Source of the DNA: Callorhinchus milii
Taxonomy: Eukaryota
Direction: 5' to 3'
DNA: 64,000 bases
Assembly: GCF_018977255.1 (NCBI RefSeq)
Contig: NW_024704742.1
Location: 5,706,001-5,770,000, forward strand
Shown here: one piece after another, positions 17,330 to 64,000 of the stretch
Layout of the letters: each line of letters opens with the position of its first letter
Position numbering within the stretch: the stretch's first letter is position 1
Notes under the pieces: generated by a model
The model's database searches: none
Told to the model about the DNA's origin: nothing
What the model saw: only the letters and a program-made list of their open reading frames with translations
Made by a program: the position numbers and the translations under genes

Positions 17330-18125
17330 TCTCCCCTCCCTCTCTCCTCTCCCCTCAATCCCTCCCTCCCTCCCCCCTCACTCTCACTCCCTCCCTCCCT
17401 CCCCCTCACTCTCTCCCTCCCTCCCCCTCACTCTCTCCCTCCCTCCCCCTCACTCTCTCCCTCCCTCCCCCTCACTCTCTCTCCCTCCCTCCCCCTCACT
17501 CTCTCCCTCCCTCCCCCTCACTCTCTCTCTCCCCTCACTCTCACTCCCTCCCTCCCCCTCACTCTCTCCCTCCCCCTCACTCTCTCTCTCTCCCCCTCAC
17601 TCTCTCTCTCCCCTCACTCTCTCTCTCCCCCTCACTCTCTCTCTCCCTCTCCCCCCTCTCCCTCCCTCCCTCCCCCCCCTCGCCCCTCACTTTCTCCCCC
17701 TCACCCCTCACTCTCTCTCCCCCTCGCCCCCCCTCTCCCTTCCTCCCCCTCGCCCCTCACTCACTCTCTCCCTTCCTCCCTAACCCCTCACTCCCTCCCC
17801 CTCGCCCCCTCTCTCCCCCGCGCTCGCCCCCTCTCTCCCCCCTCGCCCCCTCGCTCTCCCCTCGCCCCCTCTCTCTCCCCCCTCGCCCCCTCTCTCTCCC
17901 CCTCGCCCCTCTCTCCCCCCTCACTCCCTCCCCCCTCACTCCCTCCCCCTCGCCCCTCACTCCCTCCCCCTCCCCCTCACTCCCTCCCCCTCCCCCCTCA
18001 CTCCCTCCCCCTCCCCCCTCACTCCCTCCGCGCTCTCCCCCCTCACTCCCTCCGCGCTCTCCCCCCTCACTCCCTCCCCCTCCCCCCTCGCACACTCCCT
18101 CCCTCTCCCCCCTCACTCCCCCCCA
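17330..18125. repeat. C/T-rich low-complexity tract (CCCT/CTCA units)
   Basis: Nearly pure C/T with ctcact units. Confidence 0.95.
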
Positions 18126-18126
18126 C

Positions 18127-18285
18127 CTCGAGGCCCAGAGCAGCCAAACACACACACACACAAAATGGAGAGAGAGAGAGAGACCGAGGGCCTGAGCCCC
18201 GCGTGGGGCAGTGCCGGCAATGGCACAGGAGGGCCATGTGGGGAGGGAGCGGCCACCAGGAGAGGCGCGGGGCCCCTCCTGCCCT
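18127..18285 (-). promoter_or_regulatory. Unique GC-rich island within repeat tracts; possible alternative exon or regulatory element
   Basis: On the - strand: a (CT)n run, CCATTTTG (YY1-like core), and a possible donor GAG|GTGGGG at 18127/18126. Confidence 0.35.
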
Positions 18286-19840
18286 CCCTCACACACTCAC
18301 TCACTCCCTCACACTCACTCACACTCACTCCCTCACACCTCCCCTCCCTCACACACTCCCTCACACTCACTCCCCTCCCCTCCCTCACACACTCACTCAC
18401 TCACTCCCTCACACTCACTCCTCCCCTCACACTCACTCCCCTCCCCTCCCTCACACACTCACTCACACACTCCCTCACACTCACTCCTCCCCTCACACTC
18501 ACTCCCCTCCCCTCCCTCACACACTCACTCACTCACTCCCTCACACTCACTCCTCCCTCACACTCACTCCCCTCCCTCACTCACACACTCACTCACTCAC
18601 TCACACTCACTCCTCCCCTCACACTCACTCCCCTCCCCTCCCTCACACACTCACTCACACACTCACTCACTCCCTCACACCTCCCCTCCCTCACACACTC
18701 ACTCACACTCACTCCTCTCCTCCCCTCACACTCACTCCCTCTCTCCCTCACACACTCACTCTCTTACTCACTCTGTCCCTCTCACTCACTCCTTCCCTCC
18801 TCTCCTCCCCTCACACTCCCTCACTCTCTCCCTCACACACTCCCTCACTCTCTCCCTCACACACTCCCTCACTCTCTCCCTCACACACTCCCTCACTCTC
18901 TCCCTCACACACTCCCTCACTCTCTCCCTCACACACTCACTCACTCTCTCCCTCACACACTCACTCACTCTCTCCCTCACACTCACTCTCTCCTCACACT
19001 CCCTCCCTCTCCTCACACTCCCTCCCTCTCCTCACACTCCCTCCCTCTCCTCACACTCCCTCCCTCTCCTCACACTCCCTCCCTCTCCTCACACTCCCTC
19101 CCTCTCCTCACACTCACTCCCTCTCCTCACACTCACTCCCTCTCCTCACACTCACTCCCTCTCCTCACACTCACTCCCTCTCCTCACACTCACTCCCTCT
19201 CCTCACACTCACTCCCTCTCCTCACACTCACTCCCTCTCCTCACACTCACTCCCTCTCCTCACACTCACTCCCTCTCCTCACACTCACTCCCTCTCCTCA
19301 CACTCACTCCCTCTCCTCACACTCACTCCCTCTCCTCACACTCACTCCCTCTCCTCACACTCACTCCCTCTCCTCACACTCACTCCCTCTCCTCACACTC
19401 ACTCCCTCTCCTCACACTCACTCCCTCTCCTCACACTCCCTCCCTCTCCTCACATTCCCTCCCTCTCCTCACACTCACTCCCTCTCCTCACACTCACTCC
19501 CTCTCCCTCACACTCACTCCCTCTCCCTCACACTCACTCCCTCACACTCCCTCACTCTCTCCCTCACACTCCCTCACACTCTCCCTCACACTCCCTCACT
19601 CTCTCCCTCACACTCCCCCTCACACTCCCTCACACTCCCTCACTCTCTCCCTCACTCTCTCCCTCACACTCCCTCTCTCCCTCACACTCCCTCTCTCCCT
19701 CACACTCACTCCCTCACACTCACTCTCTCCCTCACACTCCCTCTCTCCCTCACACTCCCTCTCTCCCTCACACTCACTCCCTCTCTCCCTCACACTCACT
19801 CTCTCCCTCCTCTCCTCACTCCCTCCCCTCCCCCTCACTC
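18286..19840. repeat. CTCACACT/CCCT low-complexity array including an 18-bp tandem unit (CTCCTCACACTCACTCCC-like)
   Basis: Homogeneous 18-bp repeats at ~19090-19500 with degenerate flanks. Confidence 0.95.
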
Positions 19841-19842
19841 AC

Positions 19843-20125
19843 CGGGAGCTGTGGCCGCTGTTCGGGTACAGGCGGTCCCGGTGCCGCGGGCGGTGTGAGC
19901 GGGAGTCCGCGGTCAGTGACTGACCGACGGCGGCGGCGTTCCTCTGAGAGCCGCTTCCACACCGCCTCCTCCTCCCCCCGAGCCCCGAGCAGCGGGTGTG
20001 TGAGTGTGACAGTGTGACAGTGTGTGTGTGTGACTGTGTGTGACAGTGTGTGTGTGTGTGTGTGTGTCACTGAGCCCCGGGGGGGGTCGGGGCGGCCATG
20101 TTACTCTGTGACTGAGAGGAGGACT
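19843..20125 (-). other. Putative first exon of an unidentified gene divergent from MFHAS1 (coding or 5' UTR)
   Basis: GC-rich unique island between repeat tracts. Strong donor CCG|GTGAGT at 19843/19842. ATG in strong Kozak context (aacATGG) at 20099. The frame ...GEEEAVWKRLSEERRRRRS...PEQRPQLP reaches the donor in phase 0. Confidence 0.7.
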
Positions 20126-20180
20126 GAGAGGAAGCGGCGACCGCACACTTTATACACACCGACAGCCCGGGGGGCGGGGC
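20109..20180 (-). promoter_or_regulatory. Core promoter: GC box, TATA box, Inr
   Basis: GGGGCGGGGC at ~20171-20180. TATAAAG on the - strand at 20154-20148. Inr-consensus TCAGTCC with its A at 20125, placing the TATA at -29. A second TCAGTCA has its A at 20113. ETS-like CTTCC at 20134-20130. Confidence 0.65.
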
Positions 20181-20197
20181 CACAGCTCGCCCCTCCC

Positions 20198-20198
20198 A

Positions 20199-20249
<51 letters not shown>

Positions 20250-20528
20250 ACACATACACACACACACACACACCCCCACACACATACACACATACACACA
20301 CACACACACACACATACACACACCAACACACACACACACATACATACACACACACATACACACATACATACACATACACACACCAACACACACACACACA
20401 TACACACACACACACATACACACATACATACACATACACACACCAACACACACACACACATACATACACACACACACACACACACATACATACACACACC
20501 AACACACACACCCCCCCCCACACACACA

Positions 20529-20559
<31 letters not shown>

Positions 20560-23500
20560 CTACACACACCAACACATACACACACATACACCTACACACA
20601 CACACATACACACACACCAACACACACACACACATACATACACACACACCAACACACACACACACATACATACACACACATACACCTACACACACACACA
20701 TACACACACACCAACACACACACACACATACATACACACACACCAACACACACACACACATACATACACACACATACACCTACACACACACACACACATA
20801 CACACACACACACCCCCACACACCAACACACACACACCCCACATACACATACACCAACACACACACACACACACCAACACACATACACCAACACACACAT
20901 ACACACACACACATACACCCACACACACACATACATACACACATACACACCCACACACACATACACCAACACACACACACACACACACACACATACATAC
21001 ACACATACACACCCACACACACACACACACACATACATACACACACACCCACACACACACATACACCTACACACACCAACACACACACACACATACATAC
21101 ACCCACACACACACATACACCCACACACACCAACACACACATACACATACACACATACATACACACACATACACCTACACACCAACACACACACCCCCCA
21201 CACACATACACACACACACACATACATACATACACATACACACACACACATACATACATACACATACACACACACACATACACCCACACACATACACACA
21301 CACACCCCCCACACACATACACACACACACACATACATACATACACATACACACACACACATACATACATACACATACACACACACACATACACCCACAC
21401 ACATACACACACACACCCCTCACACACATACACACACACCCCCCACACACATACACACACACACCCCCCACACACATATACACACACACACACACATACA
21501 CCTACACACACCAACACACACACACACATACATACACACACATACACCTACACACACACACACACCCACACATACACCCACACACACACATACATACACA
21601 CACACACACACTAACACACCAACACACACCCCCCCCCCACACACACACACACCAACACACCCCACACACACACCAACACCCACACACACACACCCCACAT
21701 ACACATACACCCACACACACCAACACACACACACACACCCACATACACCAACACACCCCACACACACACACACACCAACACACACACCCCCCACCCACAC
21801 CAACACACACCAACACACCCCACACACACACACACCAACACACCCCCCCCACACACACACACACACACCAACACACTAACACACACACACCCCACATACA
21901 CATACACCCACACCCACACACACACATACACACCCACACACACACACATACACACCCACACACACACACCAACATACACACACACACACACACACCAACA
22001 CACACACACACACCCCACATACACATACACCCACACACACCAACACACACACACACATATATACACACACACACCCCACACACATACATACACACTCATA
22101 CACACACCCCCACACACACACATACACACACCCACACATACACCAACACACACACCCCACACACCCACACACACATACACACCCACACACACACATACAC
22201 ACATACACACCAACACACACATACACCCACCCACACACACACCAACACACACACATACACACCCACACACACCAACACACACACACACCAACACACACAC
22301 ACACACATACACATACATACACACACACACACCAACACACACACCCCCACACACACAACCACACATCCCCCACACACACAGCAACACACACACACATACA
22401 CACACACACACCAACACACACATACACACCCACACACACACACCAACACACACACACACCAACACACACACACACCAACACATCCCCCACACACACACCA
22501 ACACACACACCCCCACACCCCACACCCCCCACCCACACCAACACACACCAACACACCCCCCCCACACACACACACCAACACACCCCACACACACCAACAC
22601 ACACACACACCAACACACCCCACACCCCCCCACACCAACACACACACACACACACAGCGCACCCCACATACACACCAACACACACACACACACCCCAACA
22701 CACACACACCAACACCCCCCCCCCACACACACACCAACACACCAACACACACACCAACACACACACCCCCACACACACACCAACACCCCCCCACATCCCC
22801 CCCCACACACACACCAACACACACACACCCCCAACACACACCTCCACCCCCACACACACCAACACACACACCCCCACTACACACACCTCCACCCCCACAC
22901 ACCAACACTAACACACATACCACCCACCCTCCCCACCCAACACCAACACTAACACACACCCCCACCCCCCCAACACCAACACTGACACACACCCCCACCC
23001 CCCCAACACCAACACTGACACACACACACCCTCCCCCCAACACCAATACACACACCCCCACCCCCTTCCCCCCAACACCAATACACACACCCCCACCCCC
23101 TTCCCCCCAACACCAATACATACACCCACACCCCCTTCCCCCCAACACCAACACACACACCCCCTCCCCCCCAACACCAACACACACACCCCCTCCCCCC
23201 CAACACCAACACACACACACCCACCACACACACCTCCACCCCAACACCCCCCACCAAAATCAACACACCCTCCCCCCCCACACCAACACACCACCCCCCC
23301 ACCCCCAACACCCCCCCACCAACACTAACACACTCTCCCCTCCAACACCAACACATGTCCCCACTCCCCCCAACACCAACACACATCCCCCATCTCCCCA
23401 ACACCCCCCCCATACCAACACCCACCCCCCAACACTAACACACCCACTAACACACACCCCCACCGCCCCCAACATCAACACCAACACACCCCCCCACCAC

Positions 23501-23995
23501 CAACACTAACACACACCCCACAGCCCCAACACCAATACCCCCCCACCCGCAACACCCTCCACCCCCAACACCAGCACACCCCCAACACCCTCCACCCCCA
23601 ACACCCTCCACCCCCAACACCCTCCACCCCCAACACCAGCACACCCCCAACACCCTCCATCCCCAACACCCTCCACCCCCAACACCCTCCACCCCCAACA
23701 CCAGCACACCCCCAACACCCTCCATCCCCAACACCAGCACACCCCCACCACCAACACTAACACACACCCCACAGCCCCAACACCAATACCCCCTCACCCG
23801 CAACACCCTCCACCCCCAACACCCTCCACCCTCAACACTCTCCACCCCCAACACCAGCACACCCCCAACACCAACACTAACACACACCCCACAGCCCTAA
23901 CACCAATACCCCCCCACCCGCACACCCCCACCCTCCAACACGAACACACCCCCAACACTAACACCAACACATCCCACAACACTAACACACACCCC
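20198..23995. repeat. ~3.8 kb degenerate (CA)n array grading into CCA/CCC-rich units (CCAACACCCTCCACC-like)
   Basis: CACA with CATA and CCAA interruptions; C content rises toward 23995. Confidence 0.97.
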
Positions 23996-24029
23996 GGCAT
24001 TGAGGAGGCACTTCAACTGCCACCCGCTC

Positions 24030-24730
24030 ACTGGTTCATTCACTCACACACACTGCTCATTTACACACACACTGCTCATTTACACACACACTGCTCATTC
24101 ACACACACACACACACTGCTCATTCACACACACACTCTGCTCATTCACACATACTGCTCATTCACACACACACACACTGCTCATTCACACACACACACAA
24201 ACTGCTCATTCACACACAAACTGCTCATTCACACACACACACAAACTGCTCATTCACACACACACTGCTCATTTACACACACACACACTGCTCATTCACA
24301 CACACACACTGCTCATTCACACACACACACACACACACTGCTCATTTACACACACACACTCTGCTCATTTACACACACACACTCTGCTCATTCACACACA
24401 CACACTGCTCATTCACACACACACATACTACTCATTCACACACGCACTCTGCTCATTCACACACACTGCTCATTCACACACACTCTGCTCATTCACACAC
24501 ACACTCTGCTCATTCACACACACACACATTGCTCATTTACACACACACACACTGCTCATTTACACACACACACTGCTCATTCACACATAAACTGCTCATT
24601 CACACACACCCACTACTCCTTCACACACACACGCACTCTGCTCCTTCACACACACAGCTCATTTACACACACTGCTCATACACACACACTCTGCTCACAC
24701 ACATTGCGCACTCTGCTCACTCACTCACAC
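24030..24730. repeat. Satellite of CTGCTCATT(C/T)A(CA)n units
   Basis: The ctgctcatt core recurs many times, separated by variable CA runs. Confidence 0.95.
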
Positions 24731-24829
24731 ACATGGCAGAGCAAATGCCTCCAACAACAACACACTCAGAGCACCTCCACTGTACGCAGACACACAGCCT
24801 CCTCTCACGCACAGTACACACCATGTGCA

Positions 24830-58117: not shown

Positions 58118-58605
58118 AATAATAATAATAATAATAATAATCCTTGCATTCGATATAGCGCCTTGTGGAGTCCTGTAGCTCAGTGGGTGGAGTCCTGTAG
58201 CTCAGTGGTTAGAGCACTCGCTTTGCAAGTGAGAGACCTGAGTTCAATTCCAGGCAGAGGGCGAAACCTCGGGCAAGTTTCCTTACTCCACACACAGCCT
58301 AATAATAATCCCTCCAAAACCCAAAACAATAATAAATTGGTCATTTTCAATCCACGACTGTTTGTGGGACATCGCTGTGCGCAATTGGCTGTCGCGTTCG
58401 CCCACAAATATACAGTCAATTCACTTTACAGTGTGTTCTGTGAAGCGCTTTGGGACGTCCTCCCGACGTGAAAAGCGCTATATCAAATGCAAGGATTATT
58501 ATTATTATTATTATTATTATTATCACGTCTTCGAGACGTCTCCAAGCGCTTCGCAGGATAAACTCCAAAGTGAATTGGCTGTATATTTTGCGGGCAAAAT
58601 GCAGG
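58118..58605. mobile_element. Young + strand SINE (58165-58523, duplicated 5' end) inserted in an older - strand SINE
   Basis: Host ...atatagcgcctt|insert|(tat)cacgtcttcgagacgtc... Confidence 0.9.
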
Positions 58606-59009
58606 CTGTTGGGGAAAATATTTTTGTATTATAAAAGGCCAGAGAACCTGGCATTTTCCCAACAAGGCAATCTGGTGTTGCTTCTCATTGGGAGAGGCCC
58701 TGGTAAAGAATTTCTAATTCAATGATTACATTTACACAAGATCCTCCTCCAGCTAAAGTCTCCCCCCCCACCCGCTCCCCCCTCCCCCCCACACCTCCCC
58801 CAGCTCTCCGTGTCTGCTTTTCCCCCAATCGATTGCAGTCGGCCGATTGATTGCCTTGTGCCCGAGGGCAGAACATCATCGTCAACAGCCCGTCTCGCTC
58901 TGTAACGGCCGCAGCCACTCGCCGCTGAGCGCAACGAGTCATTTGAGGAGGAACCGACCGGCTGTGCGTATCGCGGACGGGCTTCGTTGTCGCGGTGCAG
59001 CCCGGGCGC

Positions 59010-59427
59010 GCGGAGTCCCCTTGTAGCTCAGCGGTCGGTCAGCAAGGCGAGAGGACCCGGGTTCGATTCCCGGGCGGGCGGGCGGGCGGGGGGGCGCTGA
59101 ACGCTGGGCGAGTTTCCTTACGCCCGCACCTCCCCCCGTTTGCCCAGCAGTGAGCAGGAGCCCGGTTCGTCAGTCGATTGGCGGGATCGCTTTTCCGGGG
59201 GCGGGGAGGGGGGGGGGGGCGGGGTGGAGGGGGGTAATAACTCCTTCCAAAAATAATAATAATAATAATAATAACAATAATCCCGTCACCGGTTGCGGCC
59301 GCCTACAGTCGATGGACTTCACAGTGTATTCCGTGGAGCGCTTTGAGACGTCGTGAAGAACGACTCGGATCAAATGGAAGGGTTATTACGACGATGATGA
59401 CGACGATGATGATGGTGGTGGTGGTGG
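59010..59427 (+). mobile_element. Long-form SINE, strongly GC-shifted, in the MFHAS1 CpG island
   Basis: gcggagtcc..tgtagctcagcgg, GGTTCGATTCCC, gtcgattggcgggatcgcttttccggg, gcgctttgagacgtc and atcaaatggaagggttatt are in SINE order. Confidence 0.85.
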
Positions 59428-59574
59428 ACAGGGGTCTGGGGGCTTGGGCAGAGGCTGGACAGTGGGTGGGGGGGGGGGGGGCAAGGCATGAGGGGGGTGT
59501 CCCTCCCTCCCTCCCTCCCTCCTCCCCACCCCTGGGGGTGGGGTTGGTCGGTGCTATTGGCTGGTGCGGCTCCA

Positions 59575-60005
59575 GGGAGGAGGAGAGAGTGAGAGAGAGA
59601 GGGAGAGAGAAAGAGAATGAGTGAATAAGAGAGAGAGAGAGAAAGAAAGAGAGTGAGTGAGAGAGAGCGAATGAGTGAATGAGAGAGAAAGAAAGAGAGT
59701 GAGTGAGAGGGAGAGAATGAGTGAATGAGAGAGAGAGAGAGAAAGAAAGAGAGTGAGAGGGAGAGAATGAGTCAATGAGAAAGGGAATGAGTGAATAAGA
59801 GAGAGAGAGAAAAAGAAAGAGAGTGAGAGAGAGGAATGAGTGAATGAGAGAGAGAGAGAAAGAGAGTGAGTGAATGAGAGAGAGAGAGAGAGAAAAAGAA
59901 AGAGAGAGAGAGAGAGAGACAGAGAGTGAGTGAATGAGAGAGAGAGAGAGAGAGAGAAAGAAAGAAACAGAGAGTGAGAGATAAAGAGCTGAAGGGGAGA
60001 GGGTG
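59575..60005 (+). repeat. Polypurine GA/GAGT low-complexity tract upstream of MFHAS1
   Basis: Degenerate repeats of gagtgaatgagagagagagaaaga, with almost no C. Confidence 0.95.
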
Positions 60006-60263
60006 AGAAGTCAGAAGGACAACCGAGTGGGAGAAGCTGCCGCATCCCTCCCCCTCCCTCCCTCCTTCCCTCCCTCCCTCCTTCCCTTCTCTCCCTTTAT
60101 TCCTTCATTCCCCCCCTCTCCCCCCTCCTCCTCCTTCTCCCCCTCTTCCTCCTCGAGCACTGGCGTCGAGCACTGAAGGCCGAGTCGGCGGCGGCGGCGG
60201 CGGTGAGAGCGGGAGGGGACTGAGGGGATGTAGTCTGTGAGGGGGAGAGGGAGAGGGGGCGCC

Positions 60264-63200
60264 ATGACAGAGGAGGGCGGCGGCGGGAGGGAGAGGGAGG
60301 GGGAGGGGGACAGGGCCGGGGACAGGGCCGGGGACAGGGCCGGGGCGGCCAGGCTGTGGCGAGCCTCGGCTCTGCGCTCCAGGAAACTGCGGACCAACCT
60401 GCGGCAGCTGACGCTGACCGGTCTGAGCCCGAGCCCGAGCCCGGGGCCGGGGCTGGGCCTGAGCCTGAGCCCGGGGCTGGGCCTGAGCCTGAGCCCGGGG
60501 CTGGGGCTGGGCCCGGGGCCGCCCGGCGGCCTGGCCGAGGTGGAGGTGCTGAACCTCGCCAACAACCACCTGGAGGAGCTGCCCGAGGGGCTGGGGCTGG
60601 GGGGGGGGAGGGGGAGGGGGGAGGTGGGGGGGAGGGAGGAGAAGAAGGAGGAGGAGGAGGAGGTGTAGGAGGGGGAGGAGGTGTAGGAGGGGGAGGAGGT
60701 GAAGGAGGGGGAGGAGGAGGAGGAGGGAGGAGGGGGAGGAGGGGGAGGAGGAGGAGGGAGGAGGGGGAGGAGGAGGGGAGGAGGGAGGGAGGAGGTGAAG
60801 GGAGGAGGAGGGAAGGAGGAGAGGGGAGGGAGGGAGGGGGGAGGAGGAGGAGGGAGGAAGAGGGGGAGGAGGTGAAGGAGGAGGAGGGGGAGGAAGAGGA
60901 GGTGAAGGAGGGGGAGGAGGAGGAGGAGAAGAAGGAGGAGGAGGAAGAGGGGGAGGAGGTGAAGGAGGAGGAGGGGGAGGAAGTGAAGCAGGAGGGGGAG
61001 GAGGAGGTGGAGGAGGAGGAAGAGGAGGGGGAGGGCGAGGCCTCCTGACCAACCTGACCGTCCTGATCCTGAGGAGGAACCGTTTCCACCGCCTGCCCCC
61101 GGCCCTCCAGCAGCTGCGGCACTTGACCGAGCTGGACCTCAGCCACAACTGCCTGTCCTGGCTGCCCGACGAGACGGCCACCTGCCTGCGGCGCCTGAAG
61201 AAGCTGAGCGTCAGCCACAACCGGCTCCAGAGGCTCCCGGCCGCCATGGGCTGCCTGACCAGCCTGGAGGAGCTGGACCTCAGCTTCAACGAGCTGCGCC
61301 GCCTGCCCGAGACCTTCGGCCACCTGCGGACGCTGCGCATGCTGGACGTGGACCACAACAAGCTGGCCCATTTCCCCCGGCAGATCTTGGACCTGAGGGA
61401 CCTGGAGGAGCTGGACTTCTCGGGCAACAAGGTGGACAGCTTGCCCGGCGAGATCGTCATGTTGCGGTCCATCAAGATCCTCTGGCTGAGCAACACCAAG
61501 CTGGCCAGCCTGCCCGACGGTTTCGGCCGCTTGACCACCCTGGAGAGCCTGATGCTGGACGGCAACGGGCTGAGCTCCTTGCCCGAAAGCTTCCGCAATC
61601 TGGAGCGGCTCAAAATGATCAACCTGTCGTCGAACGGGTTCGAAAGGTTCCCCAACGCTGTGGCGGAGCTGGTCAGTTTGGAAGAGCTGTACCTGAGCCG
61701 AAACCGACTCACCGTCATTCCGGAGAAGATTTCCAACATGTCCAAGCTCGCCACCCTTTGGCTGGATAACAACAGGATAAGGTACCTGCCCGATTCGATC
61801 GTGAGCCTGTGCTGTCTGGAAGAGCTGGTGCTGCAAGGGAACCAGATTGCTATTCTGCCCGACGCATTCGGAAAGCTTTCGAAGGTCAACATTTGGAAGA
61901 TTAAAGACAATCCCCTAATACAGCCTCCCTACGAGGTCTGTATGAAGGGAATACCCTACATAGCAGCGTACCAGAAGGAGCTGGCTTTGTCTCAGCCCGC
62001 AGTGAAGCCCAGGTTGAAGCTCGTGCTGATGGGACTCAAAGGTGCCGGCAAATCTGTCCTGAGGCAGTGCCTGGTTGGCCAAACGCACGGTCTTCCTGTG
62101 TCACACGGGAAAGGAATCGAAGTCACTCAGTGGGTTGCTGATGTTGAGAAGAATCTGACTTTTATCGTCTACGACTTAGCGGGAGATCAAAACTATGATC
62201 TCATTCAGCCATTCTTCCTCTCGCCCGGTGCTTTTTACCTCTTGTTAGTCAATCTGAAAGCGTACGTTTCCGGTCGCTTTTATGATTTTGTTGGCTATTT
62301 CCTACATCTTCTTGGCGCCAGGGTGCCTCATGGTGTTGTGTGTATGGTGGGGACCCACGTAGATCTCTGCAGTGAAAAAGAGATCGAAGAAAAATGCCTT
62401 GGGATTCATCACCAGATTGCTCTCCAAGAGAAACGAGATGTTGAGTTCATGAACGCTGTAGCTCAAAAGGTAGACAAAGCCCTGAGCCAAGAGTTTGATC
62501 TGCGAGCTACAAGTCCACACGCATCGTTCTACGGAGTGTCGGATAAAAACCTAAGGAGGAAGAAAGCACAGCTGCAGTACATGTTGAATAATCGCCTCCA
62601 AATATTGTCTCCTGTCATCCCCGTGAGCTGCCAAGGCCAGTATCTGGGCATCCAACGTTTGAAGGAGAAACTGCTGTCAATTGCTGAACACAGGGAGATT
62701 TTTCCAAATCTCCATAGAGTCTTGCCAAAATCATGGCAGAGGTTGGAAGAATTGCACTTTAAGCCACAGGAACTTTGGCTCTCCTGGTGGGACTCGGCCA
62801 GGTTGGGATTGCAAGCCGGCCTCACAGAAGACCGACTTCAAAGTGCCCTGTCTTACTTGCACGAGAGTGGCAAGTTGCTGTATTTTGAAGATAGTCTGAC
62901 TCTTAAAGAGTACGTATTTCATAACTTAACCAAACTCATTGACATTCTAAATATCTTCTTCCAACGTGACGCTTCGGTTCTTCTTCAGAAACTCTTGGCT
63001 GACGCCGATATTGATGAACTGAGAGCAACGCAACTGCATCACTACGTGGAAGGGTTCCTGCTTCACGGACTTCTTCCGGTGCACATCATTCGCCTTCTTT
63101 TGAAGCCACACATCAAGACCCAGCAGGATCTGAATCTAATTCTAGAATTGCTGGAGAAAATGGGTCTCTGTTATTGCCTCAATAAACCGAAAATCAAGCC

Positions 63201-63679
63201 ACTGAACGGCGCGGCAGTCTGGTTCAAGTTCCCCTGTTACGTGAAGAATGAGGTTCCACATGCAGAAGCCTGGATAAATGGCTCAAATCTCTCTGGACAA
63301 CCATTTGCCATCGAACAGCTTCAAGTTGAATATAGTTTTCCCTTTTTGTTGCCTCCAGGGCTTTTTGCCAGGTATAGTGTCCAGATCAACACACATGTTG
63401 TACATCGATCGGATGGCAAATATCAGATTTTTGCCCACAGGGGAAAGGTTCCTGTGGTGGTCAGTTACAGACCTTCCCGAAGCAGTCTGCGGGCAGACAC
63501 TTTATCTATTACCAGCCATGCTTCGTTGCCAAATATTTGGACAGCATGGCAAGCCATAATTCCTCTGGTGGAAGAACTGAATATGCTTCTCCAGGAATGG
63601 CCAGGATTGTACTTCACTGTGCATATCCTCTGTTCAAAGTGCCTTAAGAGAGGGTCCCCAAACCCGCACACCTTTCCAG
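60264..63679 (+). CDS. MFHAS1: MFHAS1/MASL1 first coding exon (LRR array, Roc GTPase, COR); frame broken in the GGA-rich insert as assembled; remaining exons lie beyond the window
   Basis: ATG in gccATGa at 60264. N-terminus ARLWRASALRSRKLRTNLRQLTL and EVLNLANNHLEELPEGLG, then LTNLTVLILRRNRFHRLP. ORF 61123-63693 has LRRs, KDNPLIQPPYEVCMKGIPYIAAYQKEL, P-loop GLKGAGKS, YDLAG, GTHVD and WLSWWDSARLGLQAGLTEDRLQSALSYLHESGKLLYF, all matching vertebrate MFHAS1 as I recall it. Ends PNPHTFP-G|GTAAG (phase-1 donor at 63680). Confidence 0.96.
60600..61038 (+). repeat. GGA-rich trinucleotide tract inside MFHAS1 exon 1 (Gly-rich when read in frame)
   Basis: Units such as gga gga ggt gaa gga ggg gga; 60853-61041 is open and in frame with the downstream LRRs. 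Confidence 0.9.
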
Positions 63680-64000
63680 GTAAGGTCATATAAGTTTTTC
63701 CTTACCTACTGTCCTCAAGCTCAGAGCAACCCACTGAACCGGTCTAGTCAGTACATTGAATCATTACAGTGAAGCCTATTCCTGAATATTTCTTTATAAT
63801 AATTAAATACATCAATTATTAATTGAAAGGGATCGAAACTCAGACATTCTATATAAACCTGAAACAATTATCTGTATTCATAACTTTAAAAGTAAAACAT
63901 AAAGGAGGGATTGTTGGGCAAAGTTGAGCTCATTTATTTTGTATAACGCAACAGCGTCATTGTTTGGAAACGTGCTCTCCTGAGAGGTAGGTTGAATAAT

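What the first reader, a model, noticed from the sequence alone, without database searches (positions are those of the whole stretch)
60598..61041. ~150-codon glycine-rich insertion between the first two LRRs of MFHAS1
Seen: LEELPEGLG and LLTNLTVLILRRN are separated by ~440 bp of GGA repeat; in human MFHAS1 (from recall) they are only a few residues apart. 60853-61041 is open in the downstream frame as GGRGGGGEGGGGGGRGGEGG...SEAGGG...GRG. It uses GGA/GGG/GGT with occasional GAA/GTA/AGA, which fits a poly-Gly protein tract. The upstream part slips frame several times in G runs (upstream frame stops at 60666; downstream frame stops at 60700 and 60796). There is no polypyrimidine acceptor, so a normal intron is unlikely. 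Inference: a lineage-specific disordered Gly loop in a ROCO LRR solenoid, with homopolymer assembly errors. Alternatives are a real frameshifted allele or an unusual splice.
Basis: partly seen in the sequence, partly recalled or inferred. Interest (0 to 1): 0.75.

Follow-up and report, generated by a model that had tools for sequence, protein, structure and literature searches.

The report
GGA microsatellite inside elephant-shark MFHAS1 exon
The elephant shark's MFHAS1 gene carries a 445-base G/A-only simple repeat exactly between its first two leucine-rich repeats; no other vertebrate examined has it, and as assembled it breaks the reading frame, so whether it is translated as a floppy glycine-rich loop remains open.

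Summary
Window 60597-61041 (445 nt; G302 A126 T13 C3 over 60598-61041) is an impure (GGA)n microsatellite in exon 1 of Callorhinchus milii MFHAS1. It lies between 'LEELPEGLG' and 'LLTNLTVLILRRN'. In 123 of 123 other vertebrate MFHAS1 proteins examined, this linker is short (7-11 residues in the 109 measured).

Both flanks are as conserved as in sharks and rays, so both still look like coding sequence. As assembled they cannot be joined. 445 = 1 mod 3, the upstream frame stops at 60666, and the downstream frame stops at 60700 and 60796. Only the third frame is open. At least two one-base changes are needed to connect the flanks. The resulting path reads both clean blocks of the tract as Gly codons.

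All 66 formal in-frame GT/GC-AG introns lack a pyrimidine tract. The read tool masked the tract, so expression and splicing across it were not tested. There is one weak hint: an RNA-like contig carries 52 more letters on the tract side.

Best reading (about 0.45): a real, lineage-specific coding microsatellite, translated as a ~150-residue Gly/Glu/Arg-rich loop, with G-run errors in the assembly. Rivals: a truly broken frame with an N-truncated protein starting at Met 61246, an odd intron, or a mis-assembled tract. Modest interest.

The parts
60264..60596 (+). N-terminal coding part of MFHAS1 exon 1, from the start ATG (60264) to '...NNHLEELPEGLG' (LRR1); frame = 0 mod 3
   Evidence: ORF 60234-60668. 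The only in-frame ATG is at 60264. It hits N-termini of fish MFHAS1 at E 2.1e-8. Identity is 55-67% over 56-68 aligned residues to orthologs, ending at their residues 67-69.
60306..60517 (+). In-frame coding minisatellites in the N-terminus: a 12-nt unit x3.3 at 60306-60345 (GDRA repeats) and 24/30-nt units at 60423-60517 (LSLSPGLG-type repeats)
   Evidence: TRF and the translation. Unit lengths are multiples of 3 and the frame stays open.
60597..61041 (+). The tract: 445 nt of impure (GGA)n, almost only G and A, lying between LRR1 and LRR2
   Evidence: G4Hunter-type score is 1.86, against -0.22 and 0.76 for the flanks.
60599..60634 (+). 5' edge of the tract with the longest G runs (G10 at 60599, G5, G6, G7 at 60626). 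This is where the upstream frame would have to shift to the open frame.
   Evidence: Run lengths.
60635..60726 (+). 5' clean block: 31 codons in register, Gly-rich only in the frame = 2 mod 3 (GGEEGGGGGGVGGGGGVGGGGGEGGGGGGGG). The other two frames carry stops (60666, 60684; 60700).
   Evidence: Motif copies are spaced by multiples of 3.
60727..60852 (+). Scrambled middle: many G3/G4/G6 runs that change the repeat phase several times. The net offset between the two clean blocks is 2 mod 3. The last stop of the downstream frame is at 60796.
   Evidence: block-to-block spacing 173 or 182 nt.
60853..61041 (+). 3' clean block: 63 codons in register, read as Gly-rich in the same frame as LRR2 and everything downstream
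61042..63679 (+). Rest of exon 1: LRR2 onwards, Roc and COR; frame = 1 mod 3. The exon ends at a CAG|GTAAGG donor.
   Evidence: Pfam LRR_8 4.9e-42 and Roc 28.7 bits. 100% identity over residues 1-815 of the public C. milii protein P0125. Donor sequence. P0125 continues 'GELLSQ', which the window does not encode.
61246..61248 (+). First in-frame ATG after the tract (context GCCGCCATGG). Both public C. milii MFHAS1 proteins start here.
   Evidence: P0001 and P0125 begin MGCLTSLEELD.

Best explanation
A GGA-type microsatellite expanded inside the coding sequence of exon 1 of Callorhinchus milii MFHAS1, a ROCO protein made of LRR, Roc and COR. The site is the short linker that leads from the 'LPEGLG' turn of LRR1 into the beta-strand of LRR2. 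In the animal the tract is most likely transcribed with the exon and kept in frame. The protein would then carry a roughly 150-residue Gly/Glu/Arg-rich, presumably disordered loop bulging out of the LRR solenoid between repeats 1 and 2.

On this reading the frame breaks in the assembly are at least two single-base miscounts in G runs. One lies at the 5' edge (60599-60665; G10, G6 and G7 runs). The other lies in 60799-60852 (G6, G4 and G3 runs).

Shown: the tract, its position, its uniqueness among the orthologs examined, the frame arithmetic, the constraint on both flanks, and the lack of normal intron signals. Inferred: translation, disorder, and that the breaks are errors.
For: 1. Both flanks look like live coding sequence. 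Against five bony-fish outgroups, the C. milii N-terminal part is 0.63 identical (five elasmobranchs average 0.58) and LRR2-3 is 0.54 (elasmobranchs 0.50). There is no excess divergence.
2. LRR2-3 (61042-61245) has no ATG of its own. The only ATGs in 60001-61300 are at 60228, 60264 and 61246. These 68 conserved codons can therefore only be translated by ribosomes arriving from upstream through the tract.
3. Only one translation path connects the flanks: frame 0, then frame 2 before 60666, then frame 1 after 60798. That path reads both clean blocks in their Gly phase. Both shifts have the same sign, as one missing base each would give.
4. The shift zones hold the longest G runs (G10, G7, G6).
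5. None of the T's in the tract makes a stop in the local Gly phase. Deviations from GGA fall mostly on codon position 3 in the 3' block (6, 7 and 14 at positions 1, 2 and 3). This is suggestive but not significant.
6. Any G/A-only tract encodes only G, E, R and K in all three frames, so local frame wobble is tolerable.
7. Normal intron signals are absent.
8. The 3' junction of the tract is not an assembly chimera. Contigs of two DNA-like runs from different samples and of one RNA-like run reach the mask edge at 61045 and carry 46, 55 and 52 further letters on the tract side. None was flagged as running on unlike the stretch. Those letters were not shown.
9. If the assembly is the PacBio CLR/Falcon one listed for this species in Table 1 of PMC12952989 (identity not established), G-run miscounts would be expected where short reads cannot polish. 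That expectation is recalled general knowledge.
Against: 1. As assembled, the tract behaves like neutral DNA. Its length is not a multiple of 3, stops lie in both needed frames, and its two clean blocks are out of register by 2 nt.
2. Two independent errors are needed, not one.
3. This assembly renders a perfect 177-nt (GGA)n elsewhere (C22:6902375-6902551), and the remaining 2.4 kb of the exon is 100% identical to the transcript-derived protein. Base errors are therefore not rampant.
4. No public C. milii protein in the searched collection contains the N-terminus or the tract. Both public proteins start at Met 61246.
5. That Met sits in a full GCCGCCATGG context (the Kozak consensus is recalled). 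This would suit an internal start.
6. No cDNA or read evidence across the tract was obtained.
Confidence: 0.45

Rival explanations
1. The frame breaks are real in this haplotype or species. Translation from ATG 60264 ends at 60666, giving a 134-residue product. The working MFHAS1 is made from Met 61246, or from transcripts that start after the tract. It lacks the N-terminal motif and LRR1-3. This would be a recent event or a segregating allele of a hypermutable coding microsatellite.
For: The sequence as assembled says exactly this. Both public C. milii proteins (P0001 of 834 aa, P0125 of 854 aa) start at Met 61246. Met 61246 lies in GCCGCCATGG, whereas orthologs have Ile or Leu at that position. 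Perfect GGA arrays elsewhere in the assembly argue against frequent G-run errors.
Against: The N-terminal part and LRR2-3 show no relaxed constraint relative to elasmobranchs, so any disruption must be very recent. The public proteins probably just start at the first ATG of 5'-incomplete transcripts (inference). RNA-like contigs run upstream of 61246, to 61079 in X8 and to the mask edge at 61045 with 52 further letters in X4. The mRNA would carry a leader of about 1 kb with a 134-codon upstream ORF.
Confidence: 0.22
2. All or the 5' two-thirds of the tract is removed from the mRNA by unusual splicing. One example is GT at 60624 or 60663 joined to an AG before 60853. That would leave the clean 3' block of 63 Gly-rich codons as coding sequence.
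For: 66 in-frame, stop-free GT/GC-AG combinations exist formally: 7 donor positions and 18 acceptor positions. A neutral, intron-like history would explain the scrambled phases, the length = 1 mod 3 and the stops. It would also explain why only the 3' block is clean and in frame with LRR2.
Against: Every candidate acceptor has only 0-3 pyrimidines in -42..-3, so there is no pyrimidine tract or branch-site context. The GT donors (GTGGGG, GTGTAG, GTAGGA) are poor matches to the recalled GTRAGT consensus. Purine-rich GGA/GAA runs are recalled to act as exonic splicing enhancers. The read-laying run reported no joints, although the region was masked. The X4 contig carries 52 more letters on the tract side of 61045, which argues against an acceptor at the very 3' edge.
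Confidence: 0.12
3. The tract as written is largely an assembly product. A real but much shorter or different G-rich repeat was inflated or garbled by noisy long reads, so the details (length, phases, stops) carry no biological meaning.
For: TRF finds 6% indels in the array. G/A-only sequence with a G4Hunter-type score of 1.86 is hard for sequencers. GA-rich sequence is a documented cause of HiFi coverage loss in the human T2T work (passages read in PMC9186530). The only long-read C. milii assembly I found described is PacBio CLR (PMC12952989 Table 1).
Against: The 3' junction, with 46-55 letters on the tract side, is present in contigs of two other DNA-like samples. The tract has orderly internal structure: motif copies in register and higher-order units. 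Other simple arrays in the assembly are clean.
Confidence: 0.1

Closest known systems
MFHAS1 (MASL1) orthologs of sharks, rays and bony vertebrates (for example Heterodontus P0002, Mustelus P0003, Latimeria P0007)
   Same: Same gene. It is single copy in the genome. The architecture is LRR-Roc-COR (review PMC6337361, passages read). The first 400 residues after the tract are 75% identical to Heterodontus and Mustelus. By segment, identity to six orthologs is 63-74% in LRR4-13 and 77-90% in the rest of exon 1. The N-terminal motif RLWR..ALRSRKLR.NLRQLTL is conserved.
   Different: All 123 orthologs examined have a short LRR1-LRR2 linker: 7-11 residues in the 109 measured, exactly 9 in 100 of them, and visibly short in the other 14. 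C. milii has 445 nt there. It also has extra in-frame minisatellites in the N-terminus.
Public C. milii MFHAS1 proteins (UniRef100_V9K9S7 of 854 aa; UniRef100_A0A4W3I3B4 of 834 aa)
   Same: P0125 is 100% identical to the window over its residues 1-815.
   Different: They start at Met 61246. They lack the 111-residue N-terminal part, the tract and LRR2-3, all of which the genome encodes upstream.
Coding triplet-repeat and low-complexity expansions (poly-Gly tracts, Gly/Arg-rich RGG or GAR regions). Recalled, not tested.
   Same: A period-3 array inside an exon that would read as Gly with Arg and Glu. It grows by slippage in multiples of 3 within each block.
   Different: It is unusually long (about 148 codons) and impure. 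As assembled it is out of frame. It sits inside a folded repeat domain rather than at a terminus.
Loop-outs between LRRs: the island domain of plant BRI1 and the Z-loop of TLR7/8/9. Recalled; BRI1 appears only as an LRR match.
   Same: Extra sequence inserted between two consecutive LRRs of an otherwise regular solenoid.
   Different: Those inserts are folded or functional and conserved. This one is simple sequence found in one lineage, with no evidence of function.
GA-rich and G-quadruplex-prone microsatellites that sequencers handle badly
   Same: The tract is G/A-only with a G4Hunter-type score of 1.86. GA-rich sequence caused HiFi coverage loss in T2T-CHM13 (PMC9186530, passages read).
   Different: Those cases are non-coding. 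This one interrupts a conserved open reading frame.

Membership tests
MFHAS1 (ROCO group with LRR + Roc-COR only) | N-terminal leucine-rich repeat domain | tested here: met
   LRR_8 at E 4.9e-42, LRR_4 at 1.5e-33, LRR_14 at 4.4e-32, all above curated cut-offs.
MFHAS1 (ROCO group with LRR + Roc-COR only) | Roc GTPase domain | tested here: met
   PF08477 Roc scores 28.7 bits against a cut-off of 27, at residues 407-522 of the downstream ORF.
MFHAS1 (ROCO group with LRR + Roc-COR only) | COR domain after Roc | tested here: inconclusive
   COR-A scores 29.7 bits (cut-off 35.3) and COR-B 20.6 bits (cut-off 27), both below threshold. However, this part is 77-90% identical to named MFHAS1 proteins that carry PF16095 and PF25497.
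MFHAS1 (ROCO group with LRR + Roc-COR only) | Orthology: best hits are MFHAS1, and the gene is single copy | tested here: met
   100% identity to C. milii MFHAS1 entries and 75% to shark MFHAS1. There is one genomic match for the N-terminus. The next LRR paralogs are 40% identical or less.
MFHAS1 (ROCO group with LRR + Roc-COR only) | One continuous reading frame from the N-terminus through LRR1 into LRR2 | tested here: not met
   The flanks are in frames 0 and 1. Stops lie at 60666 (frame 0) and at 60700 and 60796 (frame 1). This holds for the assembly as it stands.
In-frame coding repeat insertion | Length a multiple of 3 and open in the flanking frame | tested here: not met
   445 nt = 1 mod 3. 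At least two shifts are needed. Only the last 189 nt are open and in register with the downstream frame.
In-frame coding repeat insertion | Flanking codons under purifying selection on both sides | tested here: met
   A relative-rate comparison shows no excess divergence of either flank.
In-frame coding repeat insertion | Present in mature mRNA | tested here: inconclusive
   Read laying masked 60000-61044. One RNA-like contig has 52 unlaid letters on the tract side of 61045.
U2-type spliceosomal intron | GT (or GC) and AG ends that join the flanks in frame | tested here: met
   There are 66 formal combinations. In G/A-rich DNA, AG is everywhere, so this is weak evidence.
U2-type spliceosomal intron | Pyrimidine tract and branch-site context before the acceptor | tested here: not met
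   0-3 pyrimidines in -42..-3 at all 18 candidate acceptors.
U2-type spliceosomal intron | Joined form seen in RNA | tested here: inconclusive
   No joints were reported, but the region was masked by the tool.
LRR loop-out / island domain (works-like comparison only) | Insert lies between two consecutive LRRs of a regular solenoid | tested here: met
   The upstream flank aligns to ortholog residues up to 67-69. The downstream flank aligns from residues 70-74. Linker alignment.
LRR loop-out / island domain (works-like comparison only) | Insert is structured or has a function | not testable with these tools
No functional data exist.

The most novel reading that the evidence does not exclude
The frames are truly as assembled, yet the animal still makes full-length MFHAS1. 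It would do so either by removing a pyrimidine-free, purine-only GT-AG segment from the exon, or by slippage or recoding at the long G runs. Either would be an unusual way for a vertebrate gene to live with a hypermutable microsatellite in its coding sequence.
Probability: 0.1. Interest if true: 0.7.

Novelty: new member of a known kind. Interest (0 to 1): 0.28.

Why it matters
If the tract is translated, it would be a natural case of a roughly 150-residue Gly/Glu/Arg-rich loop tolerated inside the LRR solenoid of a ROCO GTPase. That would show how much insertion an LRR linker can bear. It would also give MFHAS1 in one lineage a low-complexity region of the kind that often binds RNA or drives condensation (recalled).

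There is also a practical point. The public C. milii MFHAS1 proteins are N-truncated. The conserved start, LRR1 and LRR2-3 lie upstream of their first Met, on either side of the tract. The locus is also a useful test case for base accuracy of assemblies in G/A-only repeats. If the frame breaks are simply errors, the finding is an ordinary coding microsatellite plus an annotation fix.

Tried and rejected
- Reads across the tract. The single read-laying run skipped 60000-61044 as repeat. There is therefore no cover, no joints and no letters for the tract or for the upstream exon in any of the 4 runs. This says nothing for or against expression, splicing or the G-run lengths. The tool also dropped 3 loose ends at the repeat, which are probably the unlaid 46-, 55- and 52-letter contig ends.
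- Share of sampled words. The best holder has 0.62 and the RNA-like runs have 0.40-0.50. I could not tell which words are held, so I do not use this as evidence about the tract.
- A contig break with a depth change at 61234-61242 in X4 is not seen in X8. I dropped it as a possible splice or start site.
- Looking for a C. milii or other holocephalan protein or fragment that spans the junction. One search listed the best 120 of 1708 hits. One search searched longer proteins with the N-terminus and gave 20 hits, none from C. milii. One search searched proteins of 176-560 aa and gave 87 hits, none above 68% identity and none holocephalan. No comparison within chimaeras was therefore possible.
- Structure prediction of an ortholog, to map the insertion site on the solenoid. 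I placed the site from the LRR sequence pattern only.
- PDB search. No MFHAS1 structure exists. The best matches are LRR-only similarities (LRRD1, Leptospira LIC11098, SHOC2, LRRK1/2).
- Rfam on 58500-64000: 0 matches.
- Earlier scan notes: nothing on this locus or on assembly errors.
- (GGA)15 genome count: 58 + 195 overlapping matches. The tool's 'control' is the same repeat read backwards (54 + 196), so it is not a control. I use only the existence of perfect long arrays.
- Codon-position bias of deviations (6, 7, 14) and the phase of the T's: suggestive of a Gly frame but not significant, and the copies are not independent.
- Identity of the assembly. Table 1 of PMC12952989 gives 941 Mb for IMCB_Cmil_1.0, whereas G000 has 991.5 Mb. 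I could not establish that they are the same. PMC12241362 (passages) added nothing.
Full report
WHAT IS THERE. Tandem Repeats Finder calls 60607-61034 a period-3 GGA array of 142.7 copies, with 75% matches and 6% indels. The stretch 60598-61041 is G302 A126 T13 C3, and GC skew is 1.00 over 60600-60899. Upstream, the frame whose codons start at positions = 0 mod 3 runs from ATG 60264 to '...NNHLEELPEGLG' ending at 60596. It goes on into the tract and stops at 60666. Downstream, 'LLTNLTVLILRRN...' starts at 61042 in the frame = 1 mod 3. That frame is open from 60799 to 63693 and has stops at 60700 and 60796. The third frame is open from 60224 to 61048. The tract is 445 nt, which is 1 mod 3.

WHICH GENE. 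The downstream ORF has LRR families far above threshold and Roc just above (28.7 bits against 27). COR-A and COR-B fall below their cut-offs. Its first 400 residues after the tract are 100% identical to a UniRef entry of Callorhinchus milii named 'Multifunctional ROCO family signaling regulator 1'. They are 75% identical to MFHAS1 of Heterodontus and Mustelus (1708 hits at E <= 1e-20, best 120 listed). The upstream 111 residues hit only the N-termini of fish MFHAS1-type proteins (20 hits, best E 2.1e-8) and no C. milii protein. The window is G000:C1:5706001-5770000 of a 991.5-Mb genome. The N-terminal piece occurs there once. The public protein P0125 matches exon 1 at 100% over residues 1-815, and its last 44 residues match 21.4 kb beyond the window's end. 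Other LRR genes are 40% identical or less. The two public C. milii proteins (834 and 854 aa) both begin at Met 61246, 'MGCLTSLEELD'. They therefore lack everything upstream: the N-terminus, LRR1, the tract and LRR2-3. MFHAS1 is described as LRR plus Roc-COR in the review PMC6337361 (passages read). No solved structure of it turned up.

THE INSERT IS UNIQUE AMONG WHAT COULD BE COMPARED. I had 123 non-C. milii MFHAS1 proteins in hand. In 109 of them a regular expression found both anchors, 'N..L..LP.GL' and 'L.LRRN.F'. The linker between the anchors was 7, 8, 9, 10 or 11 residues in 1, 1, 100, 6 and 1 proteins. The two C. milii entries gave spurious matches further along and are set aside. The 14 proteins that the expression missed were printed, and all have the same short linker by eye. 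Local alignments place the end of the C. milii upstream piece at ortholog residues 67-69 and the start of the downstream piece at residues 70-74. The 445 nt therefore stand where other vertebrates have essentially nothing extra. In the LRR pattern (recalled) this point lies after the 'LP..L' turn of repeat 1 and before the beta-strand 'L.L' of repeat 2. No chimaera relative could be found for comparison.

ANATOMY OF THE TRACT. G-run lengths and phase counts and the repeat families divide it into four parts.
- 60599-60634: the longest G runs (G10, G5, G6, G7).
- 60635-60726: a clean block of 31 codons in register. It is Gly-rich only in frame 2 (GGEEGGGGGGVGGGGGVGGGGGEGGGGGGGG). In this block frame 0 meets TAG at 60666 and 60684, and frame 1 meets TGA at 60700.
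- 60727-60852: a scrambled stretch with many G3, G4 and G6 runs that shift the repeat phase several times.
- 60853-61041: a second clean block of 63 codons in register. It is Gly-rich in frame 1, the frame of LRR2 (GGA 37, GGG 8, GAA 6, AGA 4, GGT 4 and four singletons).

Copies of the motif AGGAGGGGGAGGAGGTGAAGGAGG are spaced by multiples of 3 within each block, but the two blocks lie 173 or 182 nt apart, which is 2 mod 3. All T's sit at the third position of a local GGT, or at the second position of GTA, so none makes a stop in the local Gly phase. This pattern is not statistically significant, and the copies are not independent. The tract scores 1.86 on a G4Hunter-type measure, against -0.22 and 0.76 for the flanks.

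WHAT IT WOULD TAKE TO READ THROUGH. No single shift connects frame 0 to frame 1, because frame 0 closes at 60666 and frame 1 opens only after 60798. The only path is frame 0 to frame 2 before 60666, then frame 2 to frame 1 after 60798. Both shifts are what one missing base in the assembly would produce. On that path both clean blocks are read as Gly codons. The product would be about 149 residues of G, E and R with a few V, K, S and A.

INTRON TEST. There are 7 GT or GC positions before the frame-0 stop and 18 AG-preceded positions after 60798. Together they give 66 in-frame, stop-free joins. Every acceptor has only 0-3 pyrimidines in the 40 bases before it, so the signals of a normal intron are missing.

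ARE THE FLANKS STILL CODING? I compared C. milii and five elasmobranchs against five bony-fish outgroups on alignment A1.
- N-terminal piece: C. milii 0.63 identical, elasmobranch mean 0.58.
- LRR2-3: C. milii 0.54, elasmobranch mean 0.50.
- LRR4-13: 0.67 and 0.67.
- Rest of exon 1: 0.81 and 0.78.

There is no sign of relaxed constraint on either side of the tract. LRR2-3 has no ATG of its own, since the only ATGs in 60001-61300 are at 60228, 60264 and 61246. These 68 conserved codons can therefore be translated only from upstream. Either the flanks are joined in the animal, or the break is very recent.

READS. Of 24 runs listed, 20 hold part of the stretch and 3 hold half or more of its sampled words. 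I laid two DNA-like runs from different samples (X1, X2) and two RNA-like runs from two studies (X4, X8). All are contigs, and their kinds are guesses by the tool. The tool skipped 60000-61044 as repeat, so nothing can be said about the tract itself or the upstream exon. What can be said is limited.
- The contigs of X1, X2 and X4 reach the mask edge at 61045 and have 46, 55 and 52 further letters on the tract side.
- None was flagged as running on unlike the stretch.
- X8's contig ends at 61079.
- No joints were reported.

The 3' junction of the tract is therefore present in other samples. An RNA-like contig seems to continue into the tract much as the DNA contigs do. This is a weak hint against an acceptor at the very 3' edge and against transcripts that start only at 61246.

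ASSEMBLY CONTEXT. Table 1 of PMC12952989 (passages read) lists the long-read C. milii assembly as PacBio CLR assembled with Falcon, at 941 Mb. G000 has 991.5 Mb, and I could not establish that they are the same assembly. GA-rich sequence is a documented cause of coverage loss for HiFi reads (PMC9186530, passages read). That noisy long reads miscount long homopolymers where short reads cannot polish is recalled general knowledge. Two results point the other way. This assembly holds a perfect 177-nt (GGA)n at C22:6902375-6902551, and the rest of the exon has no indel against the transcript-derived protein. Errors are therefore not frequent, and most odd G3/G4 runs are probably real.

The window itself is rich in large strand-asymmetric simple repeats. 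There is a 7.4-kb C/A/T-only block at 17333-24733 and a GA-rich array at 59583-59988 just before the gene. The N-terminus of the gene has two further in-frame minisatellites. The locus is evidently prone to repeat growth.

VERDICT. The tract is real sequence of the locus, at least at its 3' junction. It is lineage-specific as far as can be compared, and it sits in a conserved coding exon. How the gene copes with it is not settled.
- Translated Gly/Glu/Arg-rich loop, with at least two G-run errors in the assembly: about 0.45. It is the only reading that fits the constraint on both flanks without an exotic mechanism, and the one available path reads both clean blocks as Gly.
- Truly broken frame with a protein starting at Met 61246, which sits in a full GCCGCCATGG context (consensus recalled): about 0.22.
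- Unusual splice of all or the 5' two-thirds: about 0.12.
- Garbled or inflated tract: about 0.10.

COMPARISON AND NOVELTY. Membership in MFHAS1 is secure by domains and orthology. Only the continuous frame fails, and only in the assembly. The tract behaves like other coding triplet-repeat expansions. If translated, it would resemble loop-outs between LRRs, such as the BRI1 island domain and the TLR Z-loop (recalled). It is simple sequence with no evidence of function. I rate it a new member of a known kind, of modest interest. Its practical value is a corrected N-terminus for C. milii MFHAS1 and a test case for assembly accuracy in G/A-only repeats.

Noticed in passing
window 17333-24733: A block of about 7.4 kb of C/A/T-only simple repeats: (CCCT)n, 76/114-nt CACT-type units, a 2.7-kb (CA)n at 20197-22886, and CACACCCC-type units. 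It gives stop-free frames of up to 1163 codons on both strands. It lies about 36-43 kb upstream of MFHAS1.
   Followed up: partly
window 59583-59988 and 60052-60096: A GA-rich microsatellite of about 400 nt and a (CCCT)n tract lie directly upstream of the MFHAS1 start codon. The promoter region is thus flanked by purine-only and pyrimidine-only runs on the same strand.
   Followed up: no
window 60306-60345 and 60423-60517: In-frame coding minisatellites in the MFHAS1 N-terminus: a 12-nt unit giving GDRA x3, and 24/30-nt units giving LSLSPGLG-type repeats. They make the segment between 'LRQLTLT' and LRR1 visibly longer than in the shark and coelacanth sequences read.
   Followed up: partly
window 60228-60233: A one-codon upstream ORF (ATG TAG) lies 31 nt before the MFHAS1 start codon.
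   Followed up: no
window 61240-61249: Met 61246, where the public C. milii MFHAS1 proteins start, sits in GCCGCCATGG. Orthologs have Ile or Leu at this LRR position. This may be chance, or a sign that an internal start is used.
   Followed up: partly
protein P0011 (Rhinoraja longicauda MFHAS1), residues about 410-470: A tandem 'KGSPP.LQGQSQS'-type insertion sits in a loop of the Roc domain of a skate MFHAS1. It is another lineage-specific repeat insert in this protein among cartilaginous fishes.
   Followed up: no
G000:C22:6902375-6902763 and five other places (C1:43675370, C3:77889120, C9:642202, C12:3497439, C17:6212974): Long, nearly perfect (GGA)n arrays exist elsewhere in the genome. The first 100 listed matches of (GGA)15 fall at these six places. 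I did not look at whether any lies in a gene.
   Followed up: no
window 60011-61928, minus strand: Stop-free antisense frames of 375-607 codons run across the GC-rich exon and the (TCC)n complement of the tract. They are most likely a by-product of composition rather than genes.
   Followed up: no
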